From positions 2,896 to 66,895 of the IMG/VR virus record IMGVR_UViG_3300044720_000021: a DNA stretch of 64,000 bases; one strand, 5' to 3'. The position numbers and the translations under genes are program-made. The number at the start of each line of letters is the position of its first letter. The first letter of the stretch is position 1. Source of the stretch: a virus. The notes beneath the pieces are model-generated. The model had not been told where the DNA came from. It saw only the letters and a list, made by a program, of their open reading frames with translations, and ran no database searches. Below, piece after piece: positions 902 to 42,880 of the stretch.

Positions 902-2161
902 ATGGCGCAGCCTGCACTCCCCGCTGAGGGTACATACGGCGAGATCGAACAGAATTTCATCGAGAACTCGCCGCCTGGGCTCTGGCCTGACAATCAGGAC
1001 TCCAACTTCGGTCAGCTTCGCAAGGTGCTCCTGGAACCGCTTCAGGAGTGTAGTGACAAGCTGACGGTTCTCGACTTGGAGATGTACGCAGCGACGGCTG
1101 AAATATATCTGTCGCTGTGGGAGCAGGAGTTGAACCTGCCCATCGCACCCACAGGCAAGACTCCGCAGAACCGGCGGGACGTGATCGCATCGAAGTTGGT
1201 CTATGGGCCGTTCACGAGGACGAGACTCAATGCGCTGATCGAGTCTTTCATCGTGACGACATTCGGCTCTGCCGCTTCGCTGACGCCGGAAGGGCTCGCT
1301 CTCGATGCTGGCGGCATCCCCCTCTTTTCAGGGGTGTCGTCGTTGGCCGATGCCTACCGAATCTACGAGGACATCAGAAACTACAGCTTCGAGCTCTGGA
1401 TCAAGAGCGCCGTCACACCGGACATGTCCTCTCTGACGCGAGAGCTCACGCGGATCGTTCCGGGTGGGCACAGCTACACGATCGACAACACCAAAACCAA
1501 TGTGCTCGATTACGCACGGACAGTTCGCAACAAGCAACCGAACGCGTTTTTCAGGCTCGGGCCTGACGCAAACGACACGTCGGGCTATGCAAATCACGGC
1601 ACGCTCAACGGCACCCATGCTCTCGTCTCCTCTCCGGGCCTGCTCGCGCACACAGACGTGGCAGGTGCCAACGGGGCTCGGGACTTCGATGGCGCGAGCG
1701 GCTATGTCTCGGTGCCCGACGCTCCTCAGCTTGATCTCGGTGATCACCTGACAATCGAGTTCTTGGCGCGGCCGGATGCAATCGGCGCGGTGATGCGGGT
1801 GGTGGATAAGGGAGCGAATGCCTACTCCGTCTACATCAACGCAACAGGGGCCGTCGTGTTCGAGCAGAAGGGCGTCGGCACCATTGCTGCGTCAACGATC
1901 AACCTCGTGGCCGGCACGATCTACTACGTCGAGGTCAAGAAGTCCGGGCCTCTAGTGAAAATCCTAATCGACGACGTTGACAGAACCGGCACGGTCGTGA
2001 ACAGGACGCTGGTGGATACAGCAACGGCTCTGAACATCGGACGTAACGTCTCAGGTGGAGAGTTTTTCAACGGCGCGCTCGATGAAGTAGCTCTCTACGA
2101 TCTGCGTCTGACGGCTGACGAGAGCACAAGCAACTACAAGACCGCCAAGAACATCGCCTGA
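902..2161 (+). CDS. Baseplate wedge subunit (Mu gp48/YmfQ-like N-terminus) fused to a LamG/ConA-like domain
   Basis: LWEQELNLP..RRDVIASKL at N-terminus; FDGASGYV..LTIEF..FNGALDEVALYDLRL at C-terminus. Confidence 0.7.
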   Translation: MAQPALPAEGTYGEIEQNFIENSPPGLWPDNQDSNFGQLRKVLLEPLQECSDKLTVLDLEMYAATAEIYLSLWEQELNLPIAPTGKTPQNRRDVIASKLVYGPFTRTRLNALIESFIVTTFGSAASLTPEGLALDAGGIPLFSGVSSLADAYRIYEDIRNYSFELWIKSAVTPDMSSLTRELTRIVPGGHSYTIDNTKTNVLDYARTVRNKQPNAFFRLGPDANDTSGYANHGTLNGTHALVSSPGLLAHTDVAGANGARDFDGASGYVSVPDAPQLDLGDHLTIEFLARPDAIGAVMRVVDKGANAYSVYINATGAVVFEQKGVGTIAASTINLVAGTIYYVEVKKSGPLVKILIDDVDRTGTVVNRTLVDTATALNIGRNVSGGEFFNGALDEVALYDLRLTADESTSNYKTAKNIA

Positions 2162-30478: not shown

Positions 30479-30642
30479 AAATGCCAAGCAGATCGATCAA
30501 GGTCAAGGCAGGTGACAGGGTGAACTACGAGAACCGTCCCGTCACCGTGCTGCAAGTCAAAGGCTCGACCGTCCAGATCCGCAACACGTTCGGCTATCCG
30601 CAGGACGTGAAGAAGTCGGAGCTCACCGAAATCAAAACCTGA
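30475..30642 (+). CDS. Small SH3/KOW-like beta protein (55 aa, not in ORF track)
   Basis: AAGGAGGAG RBS; KVKAGDRVNYENRPVTVLQVKGSTVQI. Confidence 0.55.
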   Translation: MKMPSRSIKVKAGDRVNYENRPVTVLQVKGSTVQIRNTFGYPQDVKKSELTEIKT

Positions 30643-30650
30643 CCAAATTT

Positions 30651-30803
30651 TCACCCGGTTGCCCGTGTCAGGGAATTGCCGGCGACGTTCCATCTTGACG
30701 TTCTGCGGAATGCTGCTACGATTTGCTGGTGCCAGAGCGTCAAGTGGCTCGGTCGCAAAGCGGGGAGGGTAAACAGGCGTGAGCTCTCCCCGCAGATTTT
30801 CAT
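30651..30803 (-). CDS. Possible 50-aa minus-strand ORF (MKICGESSRL..)
   Basis: Same AGGGAGGTAG RBS as neighbouring early genes; codon usage atypical. Confidence 0.3.
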   Translation of the reverse strand: MKICGESSRLFTLPALRPSHLTLWHQQIVAAFRRTSRWNVAGNSLTRATG

Positions 30804-30967
30804 AGCTCACTACCTCCCTGAGTAGAGAGCGGAACATGACGGCCCGTCCTTCACCGGCACGGGCCGTCACCGTTCTAGGGCTCAACGCTCGAACCGTAGA
30901 GCCGGATCCGTGAGTAGGTGCGCTAGCTGCGAAGGTGGATCGCGTAGCCATGCATGAAAATCCACCC

Positions 30968-30996
30968 TTGACATGCCGTGGCCGTTCAGGTAGATT
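30968..30996 (+). promoter_or_regulatory. SigA-type promoter of the plus-strand early operon
   Basis: TTGACA-17 nt-TAGATT; AAAATCCACCC just upstream; TTGTCA twice at 30995-31006. Confidence 0.75.
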
Positions 30997-31029
30997 GTCA
31001 TTGTCAAGCAAACGAGAGGGAGGTAGCGC

Positions 31030-31374
31030 ATGAGCGAAACCCTGGATACGCGGCAGTTGATTGAGGAGTTGGACGCGCTGGATGATCGCGATAGCGCGGA
31101 TTCCGACGATCCACTGGACGACGAGGAGCGCGAGCGCCGCGATGCAATCCGCGAACTGGCCGATGCCGGGATCGAGGATTGGGAGCACGGTGCGACTCTG
31201 ATTCCAGAGGACGGGTTCGAGGACTACGCGCGTGAACTCGCTGAGGACATCGGCGCAGTCGATCCCAACGCCGCATGGCCGGCCACGTACATCGATTGGG
31301 AAGCCGCCGCTACGGCTCTGCAACAGGACTACACGTCCGTAGAGTTCATGGGCGTCACGTACTACGTCCGATGA
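31030..31374 (+). CDS. Acidic ArdA-like antirestriction/DNA-mimic candidate
   Basis: Very Asp/Glu-rich; FEDYARELAEDIG..YIDWEAAATAL resembles ArdA C-terminal domain. Confidence 0.55.
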   Translation: MSETLDTRQLIEELDALDDRDSADSDDPLDDEERERRDAIRELADAGIEDWEHGATLIPEDGFEDYARELAEDIGAVDPNAAWPATYIDWEAAATALQQDYTSVEFMGVTYYVR

Positions 31375-31397
31375 AAAACTCAAATAGGGAGGTAGCA

Positions 31398-32345
31398 ATG
31401 AGCGAAACCCTCAAATGTCCGGAATGCGGTGAGGTCGTATGGGATTTGCCGCACGGATCCAAACTCGCAAAGTGTTGGGCCGTTCACCCTTCGACGGGTG
31501 GAACTCTCGCGTTCGACACTATGAGCGATGACGACGATGACGAGGAGGAAAACGTGACAGTCGAAACCCGAACAATCCAGATTTTCAAATTCGAGGAACT
31601 GTCCGAGGAGAGCCCTCGTGCCTACATCGGGAGTATGTCTCCAAAGGATCGGGCTCGTGACAAGATCAGTCAGTGGCTTCACGAGGATGCAAACGAAACA
31701 CTGAATGATCTTTTCAGTGAGCGTTTGGACGAATACGGATTCCCAACCGATACGATTGAGTGGTCGCTCGGCTACTCTCAGGGTGACGGAATGGCTTTCT
31801 ACGGATCCGTGGACGTGAACGCTTTCCTTCGCAAAATCAAGCAGGTGAAAAGGTTCCGCACTCTGCTCAGTGAAAATGTGGACGTGTCTGCCGACATCTC
31901 GCGCAATTCGTTCGGTTCTCACTACTCGCATTGGAACACGATGAACGTGGACGTGGATTACAGCGGGGTCGAGACTCCCAAGCGCGATGCCCTCCTGAAA
32001 GAACTCTGTGATGTCATGACTGAAAAGGTGCAAGACATCTCGCGCGAGCTCGAACAGGCAGGCTATGCCGCGCTGGAAGTCTCAGACGAGATAATTGCCG
32101 AGCACTGTGAGGCAAATGAGTACCGTTTCCTCGTTACTGGCGAGTTCGCGCCGGAAGGGGAGAGCACTGAAAAGTCAGAGCCCAACACCGCTGCTAAGGC
32201 ACGCCTAGAGGAGCTAAGAATCGAACTTCGAGCCGAACGCATGAGCTACGGCGAATTGGCCGAATTGCAAGGTCTAGCCGAGCACATCGACCCGAGCGAT
32301 GCCGAGCTACTTGAGGCCGCAGGCGTTCCCGAGGGGGATTCATGA
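31398..32345 (+). CDS. Multidomain acidic early protein
   Basis: CPEC N-terminus; FKFEELS..YSQGDG..EANEYRF core; RLEELR..SYGELAELQ..LLEAAGVPE C-terminus. Confidence 0.6.
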   Translation: MSETLKCPECGEVVWDLPHGSKLAKCWAVHPSTGGTLAFDTMSDDDDDEEENVTVETRTIQIFKFEELSEESPRAYIGSMSPKDRARDKISQWLHEDANETLNDLFSERLDEYGFPTDTIEWSLGYSQGDGMAFYGSVDVNAFLRKIKQVKRFRTLLSENVDVSADISRNSFGSHYSHWNTMNVDVDYSGVETPKRDALLKELCDVMTEKVQDISRELEQAGYAALEVSDEIIAEHCEANEYRFLVTGEFAPEGESTEKSEPNTAAKARLEELRIELRAERMSYGELAELQGLAEHIDPSDAELLEAAGVPEGDS

Positions 32346-33067
32346 ACTGGCGCGAGGCTCGTGACATGCTCGATGGCAAGGGCAAGCGGAGAGGGCCGCA
32401 GGACAGTCTGAAAATCGCTCGAAACACTGTGCTCGAACGTGGACGTTCATTCAACCCCGCGCTTGCTCGTGCGCCAGTGTCGAATTCGCAGTACCCCGAG
32501 ACTGCAATTGGGCTCAGGTTCCACAACACATATGTGGCAGTCCTCACGCCGCGTTGGACGGAGCTCAACACGGGAGGATGGAATACGAGGTCTACGCGCG
32601 ACAGGATCGAATTCGTGAGTGGAATTTCAGTAGGCAATCAAAGCGGCAAGGGGTGGGCCGTCTACCTCACGCGTGACGATCTCCCGTGCTACTGCCTACG
32701 CCATGCCGAGGCAGGGAAGCCGACAGGGGATCCTGAGAGGGCAATCGTCATCCGTGGCGACTACGCACCGGGGCTCGATTTTCATTTCACGGGAGAGTAC
32801 GAGGGTACGTCTGACGTGAACCCGTCCGGCAAGCCGATCTATGAATGGATCCCATGTTCGACGTGCAAAGGCTCAACATTGCGCGCCGGCATCGACTACG
32901 AAAGTGGCGGGCATCCTTTCTACGACGGGATCCGCGTTAGTGCGGACGGAAAGCGGATCATGAAAAGCCAACCGCACAAGCCGGCACGCGTCACGCCTGT
33001 CATCACTGAATCCGGGTTCGACATGGCAAGTAGTTACTCACGCCCGCGCATCTACGGGGGATGGTAG
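32342..33067 (+). CDS. Conserved phage early hypothetical protein
   Basis: LRFHNT..LNTGGWNTRSTRDRI motif. Confidence 0.6.
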   Translation: MNWREARDMLDGKGKRRGPQDSLKIARNTVLERGRSFNPALARAPVSNSQYPETAIGLRFHNTYVAVLTPRWTELNTGGWNTRSTRDRIEFVSGISVGNQSGKGWAVYLTRDDLPCYCLRHAEAGKPTGDPERAIVIRGDYAPGLDFHFTGEYEGTSDVNPSGKPIYEWIPCSTCKGSTLRAGIDYESGGHPFYDGIRVSADGKRIMKSQPHKPARVTPVITESGFDMASSYSRPRIYGGW

Positions 33068-33351
33068 GTATGACGCCCGCGCCGACGCGCCACGCCGCGC
33101 CTAAGCGCCGTCGATATCTTGTCGGATGGTCGGAGCACGGGGTGCTGTTCGAGCCGCTTACGGGGCTCTACGCAACGCACGAGAGAGCTCTAGCTCGATT
33201 GGACAGGATCCTCGGAGAGATGCGGCGCAAAAGGATCCGCGAACCGGACGGTTGGTATTTCATCTACGGCCCGGATGGCGTTCAGGACGTGGTTGGGACG
33301 GGAAAGGAGAAAGGCAAGGAGATGCCTAAATTCAGCGCCAGCGTTCGCTAG
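33061..33351 (+). CDS. Hypothetical protein
   Basis: Last gene before terminator. Confidence 0.5.
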   Translation: MVGMTPAPTRHAAPKRRRYLVGWSEHGVLFEPLTGLYATHERALARLDRILGEMRRKRIREPDGWYFIYGPDGVQDVVGTGKEKGKEMPKFSASVR

Positions 33352-33355
33352 AAAC

Positions 33356-33384
33356 AGGGCCGGGAAACCGGCCCTTTTTCTTTC
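33356..33384 (+). terminator. Intrinsic terminator
   Basis: AGGGCCGG-GAAA-CCGGCCCT-TTTTCTTT. Confidence 0.85.
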
Positions 33385-33709
33385 TGAAAATCTGGGATAA
33401 TTTTCACGCGTTTGCCGATGTCAGACGATCTCACCGGCGAAGCTGGACGCGCTTTTCAGGAATGCGCGAGCGATACCCGGATGAAATGCATCCCGGAGCT
33501 CAAGCGCAATGCAGACGTGCAAAGACAGATCGACGTTGCGGCCGGCATTCTTCTGCCGACAGGGAACGACAAAATACCCGGCGGTTGCCGGGTTTGTTGA
33601 AAATCTCTCGATTGTGGGATCCTCGCAACCCGTAGCGGACTGCAAGCGATGATCCCTAAAACGTCCTCGCAGGTCTACGCATAGCCCTCCTCGAACTCTC
33701 TACATACAT

Positions 33710-33736
33710 GCATGAAAAACCGTTGTGGATAGCGGC
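33710..33736 (+). repeat. 27-bp inverted repeat, left copy
   Basis: GCATGAAAAACCGTTGTGGATAGCGGC; 26/27 to reverse complement of 34659-34685. Confidence 0.8.
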
Positions 33737-33757
33737 TATACGCGCAATTGAGTTTAC

Positions 33758-33997
33758 TTAGACGAAGGTAGGTTTGCCATCGACAATTTTCACGGTGCCG
33801 ATGAACTCGTTAGACCCGGATCCGCTAGACCCGGACGTTGCATAGAGGTTGAAAACGTCCTGTCCCTCGAAAACGTGGCCATCGACAAGAACGCCAACAT
33901 TCCAACCTTGTGCTTGCGCGCGGATCCCGCTTGCGGAAGAACCTAGGCGGGATGCTTCTCCGCGTGAGCCCTTCACGTAGCCTATGAATTGCGCCAT
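33758..33997 (-). CDS. Conserved phage early hypothetical protein
   Basis: MAQF..GSRGEASRLGS..GW motif; AGAGGAG RBS. Confidence 0.65.
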   Translation of the reverse strand: MAQFIGYVKGSRGEASRLGSSASGIRAQAQGWNVGVLVDGHVFEGQDVFNLYATSGSSGSGSNEFIGTVKIVDGKPTFV

Positions 33998-34114
33998 GAC
34001 TTTGACTCCTCTCTGAGCCCGTTACGGACTGTCCTGCGACTGTCACGCGGTTTCAGTACGCGGCCATCGGAACGCTTTTCGTCTCGCATACGGATCCGCG
34101 AGTCTTTGAACGTC

Positions 34115-34630
34115 CTAGACATAGCCGGTACCTGCGTGCTTGAGCGTTGCCGGGTTTTCAGGATCGACCACGAGCAGTTCGGTATTGCCTCGCTCGTTCA
34201 CTTCCCACATTTCGGGAAAGTAGTTGTGCTCGTTAGTCCACGAGACGAGGAATTCCCTAGCAGCGTCGATGTCAGCGAACGTCCCTAGGTGGAACTGCTC
34301 GCTTGACACTGAAAACCCGTCGCGCGTCTCGGAAATAAACGCGTCCGATTCCTGATCGGGTCTAGGCGGCTCGCTTTCGCGAATCACCTTGCCGCAGTCA
34401 TCGCACGTAATGCCATTTTCCGTTTCATCCCACGGCGCGATTGCGCCTACGGGATTCCCTTCACTGTCTCGCGCTGATTCCGGGATAAAGCCATTTTCAT
34501 CGACCCCGAACATTTCAGCGGTGCAAGCAGGACAGTTCTCGGACGCGTTGTAGGTATAAGCGATCGGGTGCGGGTATTCCTGGTTCAGATAGTCGCCTGC
34601 ACCTTCCGTACCTGCGGGTAGAGCTCGCAT
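34115..34630 (-). CDS. Acidic zinc-binding early protein
   Basis: AYTYNASENCPAC..TCDDC; GGGAGG RBS. Confidence 0.65.
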   Translation of the reverse strand: MRALPAGTEGAGDYLNQEYPHPIAYTYNASENCPACTAEMFGVDENGFIPESARDSEGNPVGAIAPWDETENGITCDDCGKVIRESEPPRPDQESDAFISETRDGFSVSSEQFHLGTFADIDAAREFLVSWTNEHNYFPEMWEVNERGNTELLVVDPENPATLKHAGTGYV

Positions 34631-34658
34631 TGCTTCCTCCCTGAGAGAAAGCGCGCAC

Positions 34659-34685
34659 GCCGCTATCCATAACGGTTTTTCATGC
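34659..34685 (-). repeat. 27-bp inverted repeat, right copy
   Basis: GCCGCTATCCATAACGGTTTTTCATGC on + strand. Confidence 0.8.
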
Positions 34686-34765
34686 TGTATGCAGTTGTCA
34701 AAGAACGTCGGAGCGGGTTCTAGTGCTCCGAACCCGTCCCCCGCGAGGGAGGACGGATCCGCAAC

Positions 34766-34999
34766 CTAGCTACCGTGAAAAGCCGTGAGGCATTGCGCGC
34801 AATGCTCCTCCTCGGACGGATCCTCCAAAACTTGCAGTCCTTCGAGCCGCCAACCGTCTGCCTCTCCTCCGGCATGGACAGGATTGGAGGGCTCGTTCAT
34901 GCAGTCGCCGCATAGCATCTCGCTATCGTCCATGACGTAGCCGATTGGATAACCGCCCGGCCATGCGTACTTTTCAGCGGGTGCAAATGGGAAGTTCAT
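34766..34999 (-). CDS. Small zinc-binding early protein
   Basis: YAWPGGYP..LCGDC..CAQC; ATG coupled to upstream stop. Confidence 0.6.
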   Translation of the reverse strand: MNFPFAPAEKYAWPGGYPIGYVMDDSEMLCGDCMNEPSNPVHAGGEADGWRLEGLQVLEDPSEEEHCAQCLTAFHGS

Positions 35000-36065
35000 C
35001 GAACTCGCTTTCCCTTCGAGGTCGGCCGGATATGAAAAGCGCGAGCAGGGCGCTTGTGCTTCCCCTTCTCTGTACGCGTCTGAAAGCGTCTCCAACCATT
35101 CTCAGACTTGTGAACGTTATCGGCCATGCTTCCCCCTAGATTGTCATTCGATTGACTGTGCGAGGCTTGAGCGCTTCCGCTGAGATGCCATAGCGCGCGA
35201 GAACCTCGGAAACGACACCTAGCTTTTCTTCCTCGTCCAACCACGCTGCTACCCGGATCCCTTCGAGCGTGAGCAAATCGACCGTGGACGGGCTCAACTC
35301 TCGACCCGTGAGCGTGTCGATGGCCAGAGAAGCCAACTGTGCCGAGTTCAGCATGGCAATGCCCGCGCGATGTCTGCGTAATGCGGCGACACGAGATGCA
35401 TCATGCTCCGCATCTCGGCTTGCCAGTCGCGGCCGGCGCGCTCGTTCAAGCGGGTATCCATGAGGAACCGTCCGGCAAGATCCTTCGTCCTCTCGTCGGC
35501 AGTGAAAAGCATTTCATGGACTGAGCACGTCCGGTAGATGAAGTTGATTGCCTCGTCCTCGAACGCGACCACGGCGGTTTCGTTGCAGTAGTCGCACGGC
35601 TTCCCGGAGACTGATAGACGGTATGACGAGATTGTCACGGTAGGAACCTTTCTTTGTAGTCATCGACGCATTGAGTGAAAAGGGATGAATCGTAGGCATC
35701 CCCTGCGAGAACTTCGGCGGTGCAGGCGAAAGCGGCATCCGTTGTCATGCGGACGGATGAAAAAAGCGCGAACGTCACAAGGACGATAAGCAGGAAGAAC
35801 GCGATAGCGCCTCTCATGACTGCCTCTCGCCTGCCGCCGCACGCAAGCCATCGCGAAGCGTGCGCGCGAGGATGGCCGCTAGGCACTGTCCACGGGATGC
35901 TTGCGACCATCCCTCGCAACGGTAGATCACTTCCCCCGTCTCAGTGTTGCGCGCTTGCGCCTCTCTCTGCGGGGTAGTCAGCTCGATCGACCACGGCGCG
36001 TAGCGCTCGTTCAATGAGGCAACGTCGGCCGTTCTGACCATCGGGTGTGCGTGCGTGGATCCCAT
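34996..36065 (-). CDS. Five small minus-strand genes (34996-35127, 35136-35354, 35348-35638, 35635-35817, 35814-36065)
   Basis: RBSs and overlapping junctions; one TM protein, one CxxC protein. Confidence 0.5.
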
Positions 36066-36384
36066 GCTGCTCCTCTCGTCTCGTGATGTAAGTGAAAATC
36101 TAGCACAGTCAGCGGACAAATGCAGGTTCGGCGTCAACGCGTCCGCTCCTCCTCTACCCCGCAAGCGGGGGAAGGGTCGGACTGTGGGATCCTGCCAACT
36201 GACCATCTCCCCCTAGATCGGCGGCTAGAGGAGCATCCTGCATCCCTCACTAGGGGGATCCCCTCTCCGGGCTCGTGCGGCACCGCTGCGGGGATGCCCG
36301 TAGGCGGGAGAAGGGATCTACCCCGCTATAGATACGCACCCCCTGAGAGCCCTCTCTGTGAGCCCCTATGCCTAGGGTCGTGCT

Positions 36385-36416
36385 CGTGCGCGCGCGCGTG
36401 CGTGCGTGCGCGCATA
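36385..36416. repeat. 32-nt alternating purine/pyrimidine tract
   Basis: CGTGCGCGCGCGCGTGCGTGCGTGCGCGCATA. Confidence 0.85.
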
Positions 36417-37031
36417 GGGGGATTGTCATGGGCTAATGCAAGCAGGGTGCTAGCCCTCTATCCATGCCACATTGAGCGCTATATGAAAACCCGTCCCTGA
36501 AAGCGGGCAATGGGAGACTATTCACCTATCCACACTGCATAGAGAACAGGCATTCAATCCCTTCCTTTCCTAGTCTCATTCTCCCCTTGCACGGGGCCGC
36601 TCAGCACAGTGACAGGATGAAAAAAGAATCTGATCATGGCATCACTGGATTGTCACTCTACTGGCATGTACCTATGCAGGGATGCCCGCTTAGATTTTCA
36701 CCTATGCCACTGTCTGAGGGCTCAAGTAGTGAAAATCACAAGTACGATTCAAGCGACCTTCCGAGGCAGTACCGGATATTTTCATCGAGAAGGTGTTTGG
36801 ACGTATCGGTGCGGGGGGCGCATCAACACACCGCTTCTCGGATTCTGGATCAGGGAGTATTTTCATGAGGAATACCCTGGGTGGATTTTTTCTGGGTAGG
36901 AAAAAGCACTCGGGAGGACGAGGGCGCAAGCGGAGGCACAGCAAACGGGGACAGGAAGCGCTGAGAGGCCCAAAGCGGGGTGAAGGGGGGTGGAGGACGG
37001 ATTCCCGCTTCCGGGGAGCCTGTGGGCGGGT

Positions 37032-37060
37032 TTGACAGGCAAGGGAAAGGGGAGCAGACT
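37032..37060 (+). promoter_or_regulatory. SigA-type promoter of accessory operon
   Basis: TTGACA-17 nt-CAGACT. Confidence 0.55.
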
Positions 37061-37118
37061 CGATCTACCCGAAAGGCCAAGACCCCGCCGAAAGAGTGCA
37101 GGAACGAGAGGAGGAGGA

Positions 37119-37478
37119 ATGCTGGTGGCAGAACACGGACTCGGAGTCGTTTGGCACTGCCCATCGTGCGGTGCTCACTCCAAACGGCGCTTCGACAGTG
37201 TGGAGGTAGCTGCTGTCGCGCTGAAAAGACACAAGACGATGCTGCATGGCCCATCGACTGAGCGGTGGATCCGGCTGCGTGCGGGTCACTACCGATTGCT
37301 TCGAGATGGGGAGAGCGTCGGGGACGTGATCTACGAAGTGGACGTGTGGCACATCTACCCGTTCGCGGAGATCGCTGTCTACACGAAGGACATGGACGAG
37401 CCCTTCGGCACAAAGCGCGAAGCGAAGGTCGCGTTGCGGGAGGTTGCACATTCGACGGCGAAGGTTGCTTTCGTCTGA
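37119..37478 (+). CDS. Small zinc-finger protein
   Basis: GAGGAGGAGG RBS; WHCPSCG..H. Confidence 0.6.
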   Translation: MLVAEHGLGVVWHCPSCGAHSKRRFDSVEVAAVALKRHKTMLHGPSTERWIRLRAGHYRLLRDGESVGDVIYEVDVWHIYPFAEIAVYTKDMDEPFGTKREAKVALREVAHSTAKVAFV

Positions 37479-37533
37479 TGCGGCTGCTAGCTTTCGCGCG
37501 GAGCGAGATGGGGTTCCCCTTGATCGCTTTGGT

Positions 37534-37668
37534 GGAGCTCGGTGTTACCCCGGACGGTGCCGAAAGGGTTAGGCCAGAGGGGCGACGTGACATCGGCCGG
37601 CGAGTAGTGGTCACGCACTTGCTGACTCGGCGGCATGGAGGTTCGAAACCTCCCACCGGGCCTCCACC
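37534..37668 (+). ncRNA. tRNA-like RNA with an extended hairpin in place of the anticodon loop
   Basis: Acceptor CTCGGTG/CACCGGG, D-arm ACC/GGT, stem GCCGA/TCGGC, 5-nt variable region, T-arm GGAGG-TTCGAAA-CCTCC. Confidence 0.6.
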
Positions 37669-37691
37669 GCCAACTCTGAGGGGAGGTAGCG

Positions 37692-39749
37692 ATGGAAGCA
37701 GAATTCGAAGTCAATCCTGAAAAGCTGAAGGAGCTACAGGATTGGGCCAACTCCGAGCAAGGGCGCGGCGCGGCGGCTGTCGGGCTTTCCTTCGAGACGA
37801 CATGGTGCCCGAAACACCTTGAGCCCTACCGCGCAAACTGGCCCATGTGTGCCGCCGCTGCGATGGTGAAGCTGTTCGAGGCGTTTGTCGAGGACGAGCG
37901 GGCTATCAGCATGGCGGGGGGAGACTCGCTCAAGTTGAACGCAGTCATGATCGAATGCAGCCCAATCTGCTGCTTCATCTCTGAGGACGCGCTGAAAAGA
38001 GTCTACGAGGAAACGGGGGTCAGCAATGGATGAAAAGCAGATCGCGGCGCTGCGCTACATCGCTGGTGGTTCGCCTTGGAAGGAAAAGCTAGGAGCGGAG
38101 TCGATTGTCATTGAGTACGAGGAGGTTGCCAAGGCTGCGTTGCGAGGCGACTACAAGGAACCCGCGACTCCGGCGCAAGCGGAGGGTGCATGAGCAATCT
38201 CGACAGGGCAGCAATAAGGCGCGTCAATCGAGCGGTCGAGACAGCGAAGAAGGCTGCGACAGACCGGCAGTTACAAGACATTCATCTCAGACGTTTTCAT
38301 CGAGCGATGGATGACTTGGAATCGCGCGAGGAAGGCGAGGCGGTATACGACCAGTTGCGCAGTGAGGGCTGGTACGAGATGGCGGCGCGGGCGTTGTCGA
38401 AAGCCGGCCGGTCATGAATATCGAGGAGCAGTTCGAGCTCTCGTCACGGATCCGCGAGTTGATCCGCGTCACGTACAAGGCGGACGGCATCACGATCTCG
38501 AAGGCGCAGGAGATCCTTGGTGGCTACGCAGATGCCGACCATCTGATCCAGAAGATGTGGGACGACAAGATCCTTTTTCAGTCTGCGATGCGAGAGGACG
38601 AGGCGAAGTACGAGTTCACGTTCGAGGGACTTCAACAGGTTTTCAAGGTAGCGATCCCGGAAGCGCGCGACCACTACGGCGTCGAGGACGTGAACGAGGA
38701 TCAGCTACTCACTTTCGTTACGAGGCATTGGTAGAGGAGGTTTTCATGTTCGCAGGAATGTTCGATCCGAAGAACCACAGTGAAAAGGCGTGGGTGCTGC
38801 GAGGCATCGCAATCGCTTGGGTGGGCTATCTGATCTGGACTCTCGCATGAACGGTCATCAGGAATCCGGCCGGATTCTCGCGGAGAGGCTGGAACTGGAT
38901 ACTGACAATCCAGACATCGAGTTTTCGTTCAACGGAAAGCTAGGCGCTCTGCTCGACGCAGCCCAACGACTTGCGTTCAAGGGGACGCAGGCAACGCACA
39001 TGCCCAAGACAGGTGAAAATACCGAACGGGGCACGGTGATCTTCGGAGGGACGACGGATGCTGCCACGACGCCGGACGGAGCTCCGTACCACGCGTCTCT
39101 CGAATTCCCGGCCTATCTTTGGCAGGTGCTTGACCGGCCCGAGGAGATCGAAGTGTTCTTCCGCGTCAGGAAGCCGGCATGAGCGTCCACGATGACAAGC
39201 CGGTGCGTTACATGGAGGAACTAATCAGGCCCAAGTTCATCGGAGGGGAATTTCATACAAACGAACTGTTCGAGCAATGCCCTGCGATCGTTCTGGCCGA
39301 AGCTGTGATTGCGGGCGGCAACATCGCCTTCGACATGCATCACACGGCCGAATACACACCACACGGTCAGGCGGTCGAGAACTTCTGGGTGCCGACAAAC
39401 TTCAGGGTGGTGAAGCCGCGATGAAAATAACAGACAGGCTGCTCGACATGGGGTGGCACGACGATGACATATGGTGGGTGATCGGCTTCTTTGTCGCGGT
39501 CATTTTGCTTGTCATCGTCGCTATCGGGCTCGTGTCGGTGTACTTGTGAAAACCACGGAGTCGGTCAAAGGTGAAATTACCGAGGTCAAGTGGAATCACG
39601 AAGCGCAAGGTACGAACAAGCACACGGCATTCGTTCACGTCAAAACCGACTCAGGAGCTCGACTGACAATCGAAGTAGAGCGGAGTCGCAACATGGACGA
39701 GTGGAAGGTGTCGGTGCGTCGTCAGTTCGAGGTCAGGGTGCGGCGCTGA
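37692..39749 (+). CDS. Run of small hypothetical genes (37692-38033, 38190-38417, 38414-38734, 38847-39182, 39179-39424, 39421-39549 TM, 39546-39749)
   Basis: RBSs, ATGA/GTGA coupling, GC3-rich codons. Confidence 0.5.
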
Positions 39750-39873
39750 ACTTCATGGAGAACGCGATCTTTCGAATGCTCGTTCACTTCGTCATGCTTG
39801 ACGGGGTTGACGAGGAGAAGTAGGCTCGCGCAGCGCCGAAATCGTTCGACGCGTCTACCATTGGAGGAAAAGC

Positions 39874-40146
39874 ATGAAAAGACTAATCCTCGTTCCGCTT
39901 CTGGCGCTCACGTTTTTCATCGGGCTTGCGGTTGGCCCCGGTGACTCAGTAGCGGACTCGTGCGCTGCCGGCTTCGTGCAAGACGCAGCGGCGTGCGGCA
40001 GCACTGGCCCTACCAACGTGCATCTCTACGACTACAACTGTAGCCAGCGTTGGGAGCCGCCGGTCACGTTGCAGGGTCAGACTTCGACCTACGCAATGTG
40101 GTGCAACAACAATCACATCGGGCTGCACCAGCACAACAACATGTGA
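39874..40146 (+). CDS. Small secreted protein with four Cys
   Basis: GGAGG RBS; signal peptide MKRLILVPLLALTFFIGLAVG. Confidence 0.65.
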   Translation: MKRLILVPLLALTFFIGLAVGPGDSVADSCAAGFVQDAAACGSTGPTNVHLYDYNCSQRWEPPVTLQGQTSTYAMWCNNNHIGLHQHNNM

Positions 40147-40234
40147 TCTTGCAATTCGTCGTCTGACGAAGTATGCTTCCCTTCGGTGCGCCGGTTTCCC
40201 CCGGTTCATCCCCAATAGCACGCGAGGCCCGCTC

Positions 40235-40263
40235 TTGACGGCGGGCCTTCGTGTCTCTAGGAT
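40235..40263 (+). promoter_or_regulatory. SigA-type promoter with its -35 in the loop of a terminator-like hairpin
   Basis: TTGACG-17 nt-TAGGAT inside GAGGCCCGC / GCGGGCCTT stem. Confidence 0.65.
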
Positions 40264-40426
40264 CTGATTCTCACGAGTCGGCGTCGTGCTCCTAGGCTTC
40301 AGGAGTTCAACGGCCGGCTCAAGTTGGAGCCACAGGCGGCGGATCTCTCACAGATCCCAGGAGATCCGTCGCCTGACAATCTAAGGAGGGAGCCCAAGTG
40401 GCTGAGAACTCAGAATTGATGAAAAG

Positions 40427-40549
40427 ATGATTGCCTGGGTGGAAGTCCTAGCATGGCCGGTGGCTGTCATTATCGCGTCTGCGAATCTGCGGCGTGCGAT
40501 CGGCGCGCTCGCGCTTGTGTGGTTCGAGAAAGTGAAGTCGGGTGCGTAA
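40427..40549 (+). CDS. 40-aa hydrophobic peptide coupled to a 10-codon leader ORF (40398-40430)
   Basis: AAGGAGGGAG RBS before leader GTG; ATGA overlap; MIAWVEVLAWPVAVIIASANLRR. Confidence 0.45.
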   Translation: MIAWVEVLAWPVAVIIASANLRRAIGALALVWFEKVKSGA

Positions 40550-41099
40550 GGGCTCACACCCGATCGCGCAGTTCGATGGCGAGGCTGCGTTCCTCTCGAA
40601 CTTCTGGCCCTGGAACGGGAAGGTCTACGTTGCAGATCATCCGGTCACGTACAACGGCGTTCACTACAAGACGGCTGAACATGCTTTTCAGTCAGCCAAG
40701 ACGCGGTTCCCATCTCAGAAGCGCATGATCGCCGCTGCGTTGACTCCGGGGCAGGCCAAGCGGTATGGCCGGCGAGTCGATCTCCGTGAGGATTGGGAGG
40801 ACGTGAAAGTCTCTGTGATGCGGACAGTGCTTCGCTCGAAGTTCGAAGTCCTCGCTCTCCACGAGAAGCTGCTCGCGACCGGCGACCGCTTGCTGATCGA
40901 GGGCAACAGTTGGGGTGATGCATTTTGGGGTGCTGTCTCGATGTCTCAAATGCCGATGACCAGCGAGCTTGCTGACGTGACGATGTGGAAGCTGCCGCCA
41001 GGGCCGAATAGCAACTTGTTCGGTGAAAATCATTTGGGCAAGTTGCTCATGGAGCTCAGAGAGGAACTGCGTGCCGAAGCCAGTCACCCCCATCGTTGA
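40542..41099 (+). CDS. NADAR-family protein
   Basis: FLSNFWP..YKTAEHAFQSAK..AKRYGR..DWEDVKVSVM..LLATGDRLLIEGNSWGDAFWG..NHLGKLLMELR. Confidence 0.9.
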   Translation: MRKGSHPIAQFDGEAAFLSNFWPWNGKVYVADHPVTYNGVHYKTAEHAFQSAKTRFPSQKRMIAAALTPGQAKRYGRRVDLREDWEDVKVSVMRTVLRSKFEVLALHEKLLATGDRLLIEGNSWGDAFWGAVSMSQMPMTSELADVTMWKLPPGPNSNLFGENHLGKLLMELREELRAEASHPHR

Positions 41100-41392
41100 G
41101 AGATTCGAGAAGCTGAAAATAACTTGCCCTGCGTGTCAGTTCACCGTGGTTCGCAAGCTGACGGAGAAATTGCCGGCGTCATGCCAGCGATGCGAGGTTC
41201 CGTTCGAGAGAGGAGACTGAAATGAAAAATTGGATCGAGATGTATCTGTTTGCCATGCTTTTCATGATCTACTACCGCGCATCTAGGCCCGGTAGCTACC
41301 CGACGCAGGACGGAGCCATTGCCCTGATCGTCGGGCTCGTGCTTGCGTTCCTCGGCCTCGTCTACATGTGGGGCGATCTTGTCCGTTCCTAA
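41071..41392 (+). CDS. Zinc-ribbon protein (41071-41220) and 2-TM protein (41222-41392)
   Basis: CPAC..CQRC; two hydrophobic segments. Confidence 0.5.
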
Positions 41393-41837
41393 TCTCCTCA
41401 CCCGGTCGGTCGCAATCTCGCTGATCCTGAAGGAGCGCGAGCGGCAGGAGGATCTGAAAGCCGAAGGGCGCTTTCGGTTCACGCTCTACGATGATCCAGG
41501 GCTCAGCGAAGATGAAAAGCTGTTAGGGATCCTCGAAGAAGTCGCGGAAGTCGGCAAGAACCTCTTGGCCCGTCGTGGGCTTGTCACAGATGGCGACACA
41601 ACCGACGCGGCGCTCTTGAAAGAGATTGTTCAAATCGCGGCTCTTTCTCTTGCTTGGATCGAGCGCATGGCCGAGGACGCAGGCATGGAGGAGACGACGA
41701 GTGAGACTTTTCAGTCTACCGTGTTGCTCGATGAAATTAATCTGATGCGTCGAGTCATGCAAAATGCTGGCTATTGGGATCGGTTCATCGCTGACTACAC
41801 CGCCTACAAGTACGACAGGGTAGTGCGCAATGGGTGA
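41343..41837 (+). CDS. MazG-like nucleotide pyrophosphohydrolase (start uncertain)
   Basis: ERERQ..LGILEEVAEVGK..LLKEIVQIAALSLAWIE. Confidence 0.65.
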   Translation: MRSSASSTCGAILSVPNLLTRSVAISLILKERERQEDLKAEGRFRFTLYDDPGLSEDEKLLGILEEVAEVGKNLLARRGLVTDGDTTDAALLKEIVQIAALSLAWIERMAEDAGMEETTSETFQSTVLLDEINLMRRVMQNAGYWDRFIADYTAYKYDRVVRNG

Positions 41838-42228
41838 AAACCCTGAAGCTGAAGGCGGACGACAGAGGATTTTCGAAGGAGAAGCGGTGTGGGTTATCCT
41901 GCCCGGAGATCCGCTGCCTACGGTCGAGCCTCTTGGCACGGCTGACCCATCAGTCCCTTGCTATGGGATTACTCCGACGAAGATTTTTGCTTTTCATCCC
42001 CAGACGTTCTGGCGTCGAGCTTCACAGGTGGACGAATGGATGCGGAGGTCGCAGGCTATCTTGCGGTTGATGATCGCGCAGCGAGTCGGGCTTGACAATC
42101 ACATTCGAGAGCTTCTACCCAAGGCGCAGCGATACGATGAAATCATGGAGGCGGTCGAAAATGATTCGCTCGCCCGAGACGGCCTTGAGATGATCGAGGC
42201 AGGAGAGAGGAGACTGAAAAATGGATGA
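41830..42228 (+). CDS. Hypothetical protein
   Basis: Coupled junctions. Confidence 0.5.
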   Translation: MGENPEAEGGRQRIFEGEAVWVILPGDPLPTVEPLGTADPSVPCYGITPTKIFAFHPQTFWRRASQVDEWMRRSQAILRLMIAQRVGLDNHIRELLPKAQRYDEIMEAVENDSLARDGLEMIEAGERRLKNG

Positions 42229-42880
42229 CGCGCAAGATGCAGTGATCAGTGACATCGAGATTCCGTATCCGCTCATGAAAGGTAACGCGAGAATGGCTCT
42301 GGGGGCGGGCTATTTCGAGGTTCCGCTTTTCACTCCGTTGACACGATTCCTGTGGACGGGCTGCTCGCCGGCTGAATTCCCGAACGAGATGGAGGAGTTC
42401 GACTACGATCCGATGAAGGTCTACTTCTCTGGCCCGTTCAAAGAACCTATCGAGTGCAAGTGGCTCTGGCAGTCGAAGTCGTCAAGCGAAGCGGCGGCTG
42501 AAAATGATTGGGAGGAGCCCCCGCCGTTCTTCGATTCGATCCTCAATCTCTACCCTTGGGGCAAGTATGTGGTGCCCGAAGGCGTCGAGTACCGCGAGGT
42601 CGAGCTATACGACTCGGCTGACGAGCCCGACGTGGAACAGATCGAGGAGTTGGCCGCGTGGGTGATCTCTCGCCGGGGCGAAGGGCAGACAGGACGCGTG
42701 CTTGTGCATTGTCAGGCGGGGCTCAATCGCTCGGCGCTCGTGGCGGCGCGGGCGTTGATGGTTGCCAAGGGAATGACAGCGGACGACGCAATCGGACTGA
42801 TCCGTGAAAAGCGCAGCCCCACTTGCCTATGCAATCCCACCTTCGAGCGGTTTCTGAGGAAGTTCGATGCCAAGTCCTGA
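42221..42880 (+). CDS. Dual-specificity/tyrosine phosphatase
   Basis: LYDSAD acid loop; VLVHCQAGLNRS (CX5R); NPTFERFL. Confidence 0.85.
   Translation: MDDAQDAVISDIEIPYPLMKGNARMALGAGYFEVPLFTPLTRFLWTGCSPAEFPNEMEEFDYDPMKVYFSGPFKEPIECKWLWQSKSSSEAAAENDWEEPPPFFDSILNLYPWGKYVVPEGVEYREVELYDSADEPDVEQIEELAAWVISRRGEGQTGRVLVHCQAGLNRSALVAARALMVAKGMTADDAIGLIREKRSPTCLCNPTFERFLRKFDAKS

What the first reader, a model, noticed from the sequence alone, without database searches (positions are those of the whole stretch)
37534..37672. tRNA-shaped RNA with no anticodon loop
Seen: 7-bp acceptor CUCGGUG/CACCGGG abutting a canonical T-arm (GGAGG-UUCGAAA-CCUCC), UU linker, 3-bp D-stem with GG loop, 5-bp GCCGA/UCGGC stem and 5-nt variable region. 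The 7-nt anticodon loop is replaced by 63 nt that fold as a further helix (GUUAG.C/GCUGAC, CGUGAC/GUCACG). The acceptor can extend by GGAG/CUCC past a bulged C and ends CUCCACCG, like the tmRNA end CUCCACCA. It is too short for tmRNA and has the non-permuted order unlike YrlA Y RNAs. Inference: a tRNA mimic (decoy for tRNA-targeting toxins, synthetase or RNase P substrate) or an intron-bearing tRNA.
Basis: partly seen in the sequence, partly recalled or inferred. Interest (0 to 1): 0.7.

Follow-up and report, generated by a model that had tools for sequence, protein, structure and literature searches.

The report
Clamped tRNA-like RNA in soil phage
A gap between two genes of an uncultured soil phage holds a roughly 140-base sequence that copies the upper half of a transfer RNA, locked by an extra-long end helix and lacking any usable anticodon. 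It is probably a non-decoding tRNA look-alike, but it is a one-off with no relatives or expression data, so its function is unproven.

Summary
The core observation holds and is stronger than reported. Window 37531-37669 (+) carries a canonical T-arm (GGAGG-UUCGAAA-CCUCC) directly abutting a 7-bp acceptor helix with U8.

This "top half" is 29/31 identical to real actinobacterial tRNAs. The helix continues outward through 7 more Watson-Crick pairs past a single bulged C, and is followed by GCCA. With the full helix included, acceptor, clamp and T-arm each have about 1.0 ensemble probability.

The interior fold is therefore open.

ARAGORN (default) and the Rfam tRNA, tmRNA, permuted tmRNA and YrlA models all fail to call it. 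No splice position restores a credible anticodon loop, and the insert is far too short for a group I intron.

It is a singleton. Both flanking ORFs are orphans among 5.8 billion proteins, and the sequence is absent from the viral, metagenome and genome collections searched. Covariation is therefore unobtainable, and no RNA run holds it.

Related phages carry a tmRNA that ARAGORN misses, plus another long-stem T-arm element, on the same side of the terminase.

Best reading (about 0.4): a tRNA-derived, non-decoding RNA module recognised by host tRNA-processing enzymes. A decoy and a decaying tRNA relic remain live rivals.

The parts
37501..37529 (+). Predicted hairpin directly upstream of the element, inside the same 213-nt gap. 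Prediction only.
   Evidence: MFE of 37470-37720; sequence.
37531..37537 (+). 5' strand of the clamp (GGUGGAG). It pairs with 37662-37668. U37530 lies at -1 and G37531 at +1 of the long helix.
   Evidence: pair probability about 1.0; 0.5 for the innermost pair.
37538..37544 (+). Acceptor 5' strand CUCGGUG (tRNA positions 1-7), followed by U8 and U9 (37545-37546).
   Evidence: probability 0.92-1.0. It is 6/7 identical to the CCCGGUG of actinobacterial tRNA-Ile in L050/L058.
37547..37558 (+). Possible mini D-arm, ACC-CCGGAC-GGU (3 bp, 6-nt loop containing GG). Complementary letters only.
   Evidence: pairs exist; probability about 0.01.
37559..37631 (+). Interior of 73 nt in place of the anticodon arm. 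GCCGA (37559-37563) and UCGGC (37627-37631) could close it. A second UCGGC at 37593-37597 and a local hairpin at about 37598-37624 compete. No canonical anticodon loop; fold unresolved.
37632..37636 (+). 5-nt spacer GGCAU at the position of the variable region.
37637..37653 (+). Canonical T-arm GGAGG-UUCGAAA-CCUCC.
   Evidence: probability about 1.0. It is 16/17 identical to the T-arm of real tRNAs in L050, L058 and L067.
37654..37660 (+). Acceptor 3' strand CACCGGG (positions 66-72), abutting the T-stem.
37661..37661 (+). Single bulged C at exactly the discriminator position (73).
37662..37672 (+). 3' strand of the clamp, CUCCACC (37662-37668), then G37669 and C37670-C37671-A37672. Together these form an RCCA-type end after the long helix.
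   Evidence: The RCCA reading is inference.
37678..37694 (+). Shine-Dalgarno GAGGGGAGG and the ATG (37692) of the downstream orphan ORF (113 aa). The element ends about 20 nt before it.

Best explanation
The element (about 37531-37672, + strand) is a real, tRNA-derived but non-decoding RNA module.

Anatomy:
- It keeps the tRNA "top half": a 7-bp acceptor stacked on a canonical T-arm.
- That half is locked by a further 7-bp leader-trailer helix (the clamp).
- The bottom half (D and anticodon arms) is replaced by about 90 nt of unrelated sequence.

Proposed mechanism:
- The element has no promoter or terminator of its own. It is transcribed inside the rightward polycistronic message, between two orphan genes.
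- It is recognised there by host enzymes that read the tRNA top half. The first candidate is RNase P, then 3'-end trimming and CCA enzymes, and possibly TruB or TrmA.
- Cleavage would release a stable RNA of about 140 nt ending in GCCA. It would also separate the upstream message from the downstream one, whose ribosome-binding site starts about 10 nt after the helix.

Shown: the anatomy, its thermodynamic dominance, its near-identity to real tRNA top halves, and the absence of an anticodon loop.

Inferred: transcription, processing, and any trans-acting role.
For: 1. All top-half pairs and the conserved T-loop letters are present.
2. With the whole helix included, clamp, acceptor and T-arm form the free MFE with probability about 1.0. 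They also appear in the MFE of the 251-nt context.
3. The chance rate of T-arm + acceptor + U8 is 0.0075 per shuffled genome. The 7 extra Watson-Crick pairs make chance negligible (inference).
4. The top half is 29/31 identical to genuine tRNAs: Umezawaea tRNA-Ile(GAU) (L050/L058) has the same acceptor 3' strand and a T-arm differing at one loop base; Frigoribacterium tRNA-Arg(UCU) (L067) shares these T-arm and 3'-strand letters.
5. The exact 21-mer occurs in none of 185,579 species genomes. It is therefore a diverged derivative, not a fresh capture.
6. It fills a 213-nt non-coding gap on the coding strand. Overlapping ORFs lack the coding GC3 signature. No promoter-like or terminator-like site lies beside it.
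7. The long-helix end reads U(-1)/G(+1)...G-CCA. These are the letters bacterial RNase P prefers at a cleavage site (established knowledge of U-1, G+1 and 3'-RCCA; inference for this case).
8. Relatives G004/G002 carry a long-stem T-arm element and a tmRNA on the same side of the terminase. tRNA-like RNA genes therefore recur in this accessory region.
Against: - There is no evidence that an RNA is made. The only listed holder is the source DNA run.
- There is no homologue anywhere, so there is no covariation.
- A paired leader normally hinders bacterial RNase P.
- The GCCA end lies 14 bp plus a bulge from the T-stem. That is not the 12-bp acceptor/T-stem distance RNase P measures. At the classical register (G-1/C+1, discriminator C) there is no CCA.
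- The interior fold, and therefore any L-shape, is unsupported.
- The RF00005 tRNA model gives no match even at E<=10.
- No phage gene for a tRNA-handling protein was found.
Confidence: 0.4

Rival explanations
1. Trans-acting tRNA mimic or decoy. The stable clamped RNA occupies a host protein that binds the tRNA acceptor/T-arm. Candidates are a tRNA-targeting defence nuclease or transferase, a maturation enzyme, or a synthetase. It cannot itself decode.
For: The anatomy is the same as for the best explanation. The top half is kept almost letter for letter as in real tRNAs, while the anticodon end is replaced. This is the pattern expected if only top-half recognition matters. The encoded GCCA end would give it a tRNA-like 3' terminus. 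This reading overlaps with the best explanation rather than excluding it.
Against: No partner protein or defence context was identified. Neighbouring ORFs are orphans with no family. The element occurs in a single genome. No identity element for an anticodon-independent synthetase is present: there is no G3:U70, and G-1 pairs better with C74 than with C73. There are no expression data.
Confidence: 0.2
2. A decaying tRNA gene (pseudogene) whose lower half has been scrambled by insertions. It has no present function.
For: The top half closely resembles real tRNAs. The lower half fits no model. It lies in a hypervariable accessory region not shared even with the 71%-identity relative. It is unique to one genome.
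Against: Seven additional perfect Watson-Crick pairs between leader and trailer, and a fully intact T-arm and acceptor, are not expected from neutral decay. Positions 2:71 and 3:70 differ from common tRNA sequences while pairing is kept (inference). A compact phage genome rarely keeps 213 nt of junk.
Confidence: 0.2
3. A cis-acting mRNA structure unrelated to tRNA function. Examples are an RNase III-type intercistronic processing or stability hairpin, or a translational switch. In a switch, the two CCUCC copies would compete for GGAGG of the T-stem and for the downstream Shine-Dalgarno sequence.
For: The element sits about 10 nt before the downstream ribosome-binding site. A rival 15-bp hairpin (GGCGG..GGAGGUUCG / CGGGCCUCC..CCGCC) is the MFE when the 5' clamp strand is left out. 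GGAGG/CCUCC words recur in it.
Against: The alternative hairpin disappears once the full helix is present. The T-loop matches the tRNA consensus at every conserved position and real tRNAs at 16/17. A generic hairpin does not require that.
Confidence: 0.1
4. A functional decoding tRNA interrupted by an intron in the anticodon region.
For: ARAGORN in intron mode at 80% stringency draws a tRNA-Ser(GCU) with a 54-nt intron.
Against: Nothing is found at default stringency. The intron would lie before the anticodon loop (27/28 by ARAGORN's count). The stem would carry an A.C mismatch. A bacterial tRNA-Ser should have a long variable arm. A 37/38 splice gives A33/U37. There is no bulge-helix-bulge motif. 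The insert is too short for a group I intron (established knowledge). No ligase or endonuclease gene was found.
Confidence: 0.03
5. A miniature tmRNA-like or Y-RNA-like RNA: a partner of SmpB, or of Ro60/Rsr.
For: Related phages carry a tmRNA at the corresponding side. D. radiodurans Yrn1 is described with the opposite arm order to YrlA (PMC4201824). I infer from this that its terminal stem stands in the acceptor position, as here. The word GCCGAAAG (37559-37566) fits the YrlA motif GNCGAAN0-1G.
Against: RF00023, RF04321 and RF02553 give nothing at E<=10. There is no G3:U70 and no tag reading frame. No SmpB or TROVE gene is present in 81 ORFs. The motif lies on the strand leaving the core, opposite to YrlA topology, and is expected by chance about 0.07 times in 139 nt (inference).
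Confidence: 0.04
6. attP-type remnant of a host tRNA 3' end, used for integration.
For: The 3' 24 nt are near-identical to the 3' ends of real tRNAs.
Against: No integrase or recombinase family was found among 81 ORFs. An attP core would not carry the matching 5' acceptor strand or a 7-bp leader-trailer extension. The exact 21-mer exists in no genome searched.
Confidence: 0.02

Closest known systems
Canonical bacterial or phage tRNA (Rfam RF00005)
   Same: 7-bp acceptor, U8, a 5-bp T-stem with loop UUCGAAA, and a 5-nt spacer before the T-arm. The top half is 29/31 identical to actinobacterial tRNA-Ile.
   Different: No 7-nt anticodon loop. The D-arm is at best 3 bp plus a 6-nt loop. About 73 nt stand where 17 should be. 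The leader and trailer form 7 more pairs. Not called by ARAGORN or RF00005.
tRNA-like domain of tmRNA (RF00023)
   Same: Acceptor plus T-arm, with a long irregular arm replacing the anticodon arm. Related phages G004/G002 carry a genuine tmRNA on the same side of the terminase.
   Different: 142 nt against about 350 nt. No G3:U70, no pseudoknots, no tag frame. A 5-nt spacer rather than 1 nt before the T-arm. No model hit.
Bacterial Y RNAs: YrlA (RF02553) and D. radiodurans Yrn1 (Chen et al. 2014, PMC4201824)
   Same: Non-decoding RNAs with a tRNA-like T-arm and a long terminal stem. M. smegmatis YrlA is cut by RNase P and receives CCA. By inference from that paper, Yrn1 has the non-permuted arm order, as here.
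   Different: YrlA is permuted (T before D). It lies within 4 kb of a Ro60 gene and carries GNCGAAN0-1G near its 5' end. Here there is no Ro60 gene, no model hit, and the motif-like word is on the wrong strand.
Phage T4 RNA C and RNA D (small stable RNAs of the T4 tRNA region)
   Same: Phage-encoded small RNAs of similar size, from a tRNA context, with unknown role (PMC3014915).
   Different: They lie in a cluster of real tRNA genes, whereas this phage has none. I could not compare sequences or structures. The resemblance in tRNA-like ends rests on memory only.
mascRNA / MALAT1 3'-end module (RF01684) and gammaherpesvirus 68 tRNA-like RNAs
   Same: tRNA-like folds embedded in longer transcripts. 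Host RNase P and RNase Z use them to cut the transcript. They receive CCA but are not used for decoding (established knowledge).
   Different: These are eukaryotic systems and have no terminal clamp. RF01684 gives no hit here.
Element A of related phages (L005:1068-1190, identical in L003)
   Same: T-arm AGAGG-UUCGACU-CCUCU next to a 14-15-bp terminal helix. A 3-bp/6-nt-loop hairpin ending in GAC (GGC-UGAGAC-GCC) lies at the same offset from the helix as ACC-CCGGAC-GGU. It is in the accessory region upstream of the terminase.
   Different: Two mismatches between helix and T-stem. No bulged discriminator and no CCA. It is followed 10 nt later by a tmRNA. The covariance model of the G000 element scores it 12.8 bits, no better than the tmRNA 3' end at 12.6 bits. 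Common descent is therefore not shown.

Membership tests
tRNA (RF00005) | Scores above threshold with the tRNA covariance model or a tRNA detector | tested here: not met
   ARAGORN default finds 0 genes. Rfam gives no match at gathering score or at E<=10. RF00005 on the whole record gives no match at E<=10.
tRNA (RF00005) | 7-bp acceptor stacked on a 5-bp T-stem with a T-loop of consensus UUCRANN | tested here: met
   29/31 identical to real tRNAs.
tRNA (RF00005) | 5-bp anticodon stem closing a 7-nt loop with U33 and a purine at 37 | tested here: not met
   63 nt lie between GCCGA and UCGGC. No deletion restores a canonical loop.
Intron-bearing tRNA | Recognisable intron class: group I in bacteria, or bulge-helix-bulge in archaea | tested here: not met
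   No Rfam intron hit. The bulges lie on one strand only. The 54-63 nt length is below group I size (established knowledge).
tmRNA (RF00023 / RF04321) | Model match, G3:U70 pair, and a tag reading frame | tested here: not met
   No hit at E<=10. Pairs 1-3 are C-G, U.G and C-G. The same search does find a tmRNA in relative L005 at 57.6 bits.
YrlA / Y RNA (RF02553) | Model match and permuted T-AS-D order | tested here: not met
   No match at E<=10. The order here is D-like then T.
YrlA / Y RNA (RF02553) | Encoded within a few kb of a Ro60/Rsr (TROVE) gene | tested here: not met
   No TROVE hit among 81 ORFs scanned against Pfam.
RNase P substrate (functional class) | Cleaved by RNase P at the 5' end of the acceptor helix | not testable with these tools
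   Only the sequence determinants can be read: U-1/G+1 and 3'-GCCA at the long-helix register, and a 12-bp acceptor/T stack at the classical register.
Conserved structured RNA family | Covariation in homologues | tested here: inconclusive
   No homologue was found in the viral, metagenome or genome collections, or among 20 related phage loci.

The most novel reading that the evidence does not exclude
The element and Element A of the related phages would be two members of an undescribed class of phage "clamped T-arm RNAs". These would be stable, non-decoding RNAs with a tRNA top half on a double-length acceptor helix, here ending in GCCA. They would travel in the same accessory slot as phage tmRNA genes and act in trans on the host tRNA or ribosome-rescue machinery, or on a tRNA-targeting defence.
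Probability: 0.15. Interest if true: 0.6.

Novelty: new variant of a known kind. Interest (0 to 1): 0.38.

Why it matters
Phages carry tRNAs, tmRNAs and tRNA look-alikes to exploit or escape host translation and tRNA-targeting defences. A look-alike that keeps only the part read by RNase P, CCA-adding and modification enzymes, held shut by an extra helix, would be a compact natural handle for those enzymes. It would add a variant to the small set of known bacterial and phage tRNA mimics (tmRNA, YrlA, T4 RNA C/D).

The practical point is that standard detectors (ARAGORN, Rfam) miss both this element and the tmRNA in its relatives, so such RNAs are under-counted in viromes.

The weight of the finding is limited. 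It is a single sequence from a soil metagenome, with no host, no relatives and no transcript evidence.

Tried and rejected
- Homologues by DNA. None in blastn against 50,697 phage records. None in exact 24-mer scans of viral contigs and metagenome contigs. None in a 21-mer scan of genome contigs. Also none by blastn, nor with a covariance model built from the element, in 4 related phage genomes and 18 related loci.
- Homologues through neighbours. Both flanking ORFs are orphans. The 30.5-42 kb region is not shared with relatives.
- RNA evidence. No RNA holder is listed; the only run is the probable DNA source.
- Isotype assignment. A degenerate T-arm/acceptor pattern hits tRNA-Asn, Ile, Arg, Met and Gln in many phyla. 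No isotype can be assigned, and it gives only a weak host hint.
- Repeats. No copy of any part of the gap occurs elsewhere in the four genomes.
- Partner proteins. Pfam and PHROGs on 81 ORFs show no SmpB, TROVE, CCA-adding enzyme, RNA ligase, Pth or integrase. The Atlas look-up of the downstream ORF gave nothing usable (pLDDT 0.44).
- Same family as Element A. Rejected as unproven, because the model scores Element A no better than a tmRNA T-arm.
- The GCCGAAAG word as a Ro-binding motif. Rejected because of the wrong strand topology and the absence of a Ro60 gene.
- The genome search "relatives" is not available for virus records.

Full report
**Setting**

The window is part of an IMG/VR virus record of 69,205 bases, judged complete by CheckV and recovered from a soil metagenome.
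- Its G+C content is 59%.
- It has bacterial-type replication genes: Pol III alpha, DnaB, primase and RecA. It also has a gpA-type terminase and a capsid gene.
- No integrase was found.

The finding lies in a 213-nt gap (37479-37691). The gap separates two + strand ORFs that have the coding GC3 pattern. ORFs overlapping the gap in other frames lack that pattern. No sigma-70-like promoter or intrinsic terminator flanks the element, so it is most simply part of a polycistronic transcript.

The robust part is the tRNA "top half":
- C37538-G37544 pairs with C37654-G37660 (7 bp, one U.G).
- This helix runs directly into the T-arm G37637-C37653 (GGAGG-UUCGAAA-CCUCC), which has all conserved T-loop letters.
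- U8 follows the 5' strand.

GGUGGAG (37531-37537) pairs with CUCCACC (37662-37668), leaving C37661 as a one-base bulge exactly at the discriminator position. GCCA follows.

Folding gives different answers depending on the ends chosen:
The tRNA-like fold then has only 0.19 probability and is not the MFE.
- Folding 37526-37676 makes clamp, acceptor and T-arm the unconstrained MFE, with probability about 1.0.
- The same helices appear in the MFE of the 251-nt context.

Chance was tested with 400 first-order Markov genomes:
- A T-arm motif alone is expected 0.335 times per genome. It is therefore not evidence on its own: a second copy sits inside a coding region at window ~1139 (-).
- T-arm plus abutting 7-bp acceptor plus U8 occurs 0.0075 times per genome.
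- Seven further Watson-Crick pairs (about 1e-4, inference) and placement in a gap on the coding strand make chance negligible. This holds even across the very large number of windows this scan reads.

**Relation to real tRNAs**

- The 21-mer T-arm+CACC is absent from one genome of each of 185,579 species.
- With the variable loop positions freed, 39 genomes match, mostly at tRNA-Asn(GUU) but also at Ile, Arg, Met and Gln.
- The actinobacterial tRNA-Ile(GAU) genes (Umezawaea; L050/L058) share CACCGGG, the whole T-stem and CCCGGUG. A Frigoribacterium tRNA-Arg(UCU) (L067) shares CACCGGG and the T-arm, but its 5' strand reads CCCGAUG.
- Against the tRNA-Ile genes the element's top half is therefore 29/31 identical.

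It is thus tRNA-derived or tRNA-mimicking. No isotype can be named, and the host hint (Actinomycetota) is weak.

**What is not supported**

- The 3-bp D-stem, the 5-bp GCCGA/UCGGC stem and the two inner helices have ensemble probabilities of about 0.
- A second UCGGC (37593-37597) and a strong local hairpin (about 37598-37624) compete with them.
- ARAGORN default, Rfam 15 at gathering score and at E<=10, and targeted RF00005 and RF02553 searches all return nothing.
- ARAGORN in intron mode needs 80% stringency. It then proposes a class-I tRNA-Ser(GCU) with a 54-nt intron at position 27/28 by its own count, before the anticodon loop, and a mismatched stem.
- A 37/38 splice would give A33/U37. 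There is no bulge-helix-bulge motif, and 54-63 nt is far below bacterial group I introns.

The intron reading is therefore very unlikely.

**Relatives**

Terminase searches recovered 20 related loci.
- None contains the element by blastn or by a covariance model built from it.
- The whole 30.5-42 kb accessory region is unshared, even with the 71%-identity relative.
- Both flanking ORFs are orphans among 5.8 billion proteins.
- The element's 24-mer is absent from viral and metagenome contigs.

The only sequencing run holding the locus is the probable DNA source.

**A related observation**

Two relatives, G004 (complete, with terminal repeats) and G002, are identical to each other over this region. 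About 8.5 kb upstream of the terminase they carry a roughly 520-nt gap with two T-arms. In G000 the element lies 7.3 kb upstream.
- One T-arm belongs to a bona fide tmRNA: RF00023, 57.6 bits against a 47-bit threshold, with a G3:U70 acceptor and no encoded CCA. ARAGORN misses it at every stringency tried.
- The other, Element A (L005:1068-1190), has a 14-15-bp terminal helix beside a T-arm. It also has a 3-bp/6-nt hairpin at the same offset as the G000 "D-arm".

The G000 model scores Element A at 12.8 bits, no better than the tmRNA T-arm region at 12.6 bits. I therefore treat the resemblance as architectural and do not claim homology. G000 and G001 have no Rfam family at all.

**Mechanism**

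The anatomy preserves what top-half readers use: the acceptor/T-stem stack, the T-loop and a 3' RCCA. These readers are RNase P, the CCA-adding enzyme, TruB and TrmA.

Two cleavage registers are possible:
- The classical register is 12 bp from the T-loop, between G37537 and C37538. The bulged C37661 would be the discriminator.
- The long-helix register lies between U37530 and G37531, with G37669-CCA as the RCCA. It carries the U(-1), G(+1) and RCCA letters favoured by bacterial RNase P (established knowledge; inference for this case).

Either cut would free a stable RNA and separate the upstream message from a downstream message whose ribosome-binding site begins about 10 nt after the helix.

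A paired leader usually hinders RNase P, so this remains an inference. A trans-acting decoy role is compatible with the anatomy but has no specific support. No tRNA-handling, SmpB, Ro60, ligase or integrase gene is present, and the downstream orphan gives no usable structural lead.

**Comparison and novelty**

The element works most like the tRNA-like modules of tmRNA, of bacterial Y RNAs and of mascRNA-type processing signals. M. smegmatis YrlA, for example, is cut by RNase P and given CCA (PMC4201824). The element fails the membership tests for tRNA, tmRNA and YrlA.

This scan has already reported several unrelated anticodon-less tRNA mimics in other phages. None resembles this sequence.

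I rate it a new variant of a known kind: a real and unusual structure, but a singleton without expression, conservation or a partner. Interest is moderate to low (0.38).

Noticed in passing
L005:1200-1551 (+), identical in L003; = G004 contig ~11205-11556 (-): A phage-encoded one-piece tmRNA. It scores 57.6 bits on RF00023 (threshold 47, E 7e-22). Its acceptor is GGGGUAG/CUACUCC with G3:U70, and CCA is not encoded. A possible 26-residue tag (AKDEVANEAARGIVEIEAFLSESALVSA) starts at L005:1292. ARAGORN fails to find it at every stringency tried, from default down to 70%.
   Followed up: partly
L005:1068-1190 (+), identical in L003: "Element A": a 14-15-bp terminal helix (GAUUGAGAGACGAGC / GUUCGUCUCUCAAUU) enclosing a T-arm AGAGG-UUCGACU-CCUCU and a GGC-UGAGAC-GCC hairpin. 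It lies 10 nt upstream of the tmRNA. No Rfam family matches it (best is 14 bits to mascRNA). MFE z-score is -2.65.
   Followed up: partly
window ~1123-1139 (-), inside ORF 902-2161: A second T-arm-like motif, GCAGG-UUCAACU-CCUGC, with no acceptor helix. It is consistent with the chance rate of 0.335 per genome.
   Followed up: yes
window 30500-42000: A block of about 12 kb of small ORFs with divergent transcription. It has no counterpart in the relatives G001, G002 or G004. In G001 the homologues of the genes on either side of this block lie at the two ends of the contig.
   Followed up: partly
window 42221-42880 (+), and one unlocated ORF among those scanned: A dual-specificity phosphatase domain (DSPc, 7e-15) at 42221-42880. 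A NADAR domain (1e-28) and a HIRAN domain (1e-10) occur in small ORFs whose positions I did not resolve. NADAR proteins are known to reverse ADP-ribosylation, which suggests a possible counter-defence role.
   Followed up: no
Pfam gives no family for it even at E<=1.
   Followed up: partly
window 36990-37478 (+): In the protein collection the upstream ORF is called as a 92-residue product, not 162 residues, so its true start is probably near 37200. It contains a CPxC-type zinc-ribbon-like word with only sub-threshold Pfam hits.
   Followed up: partly
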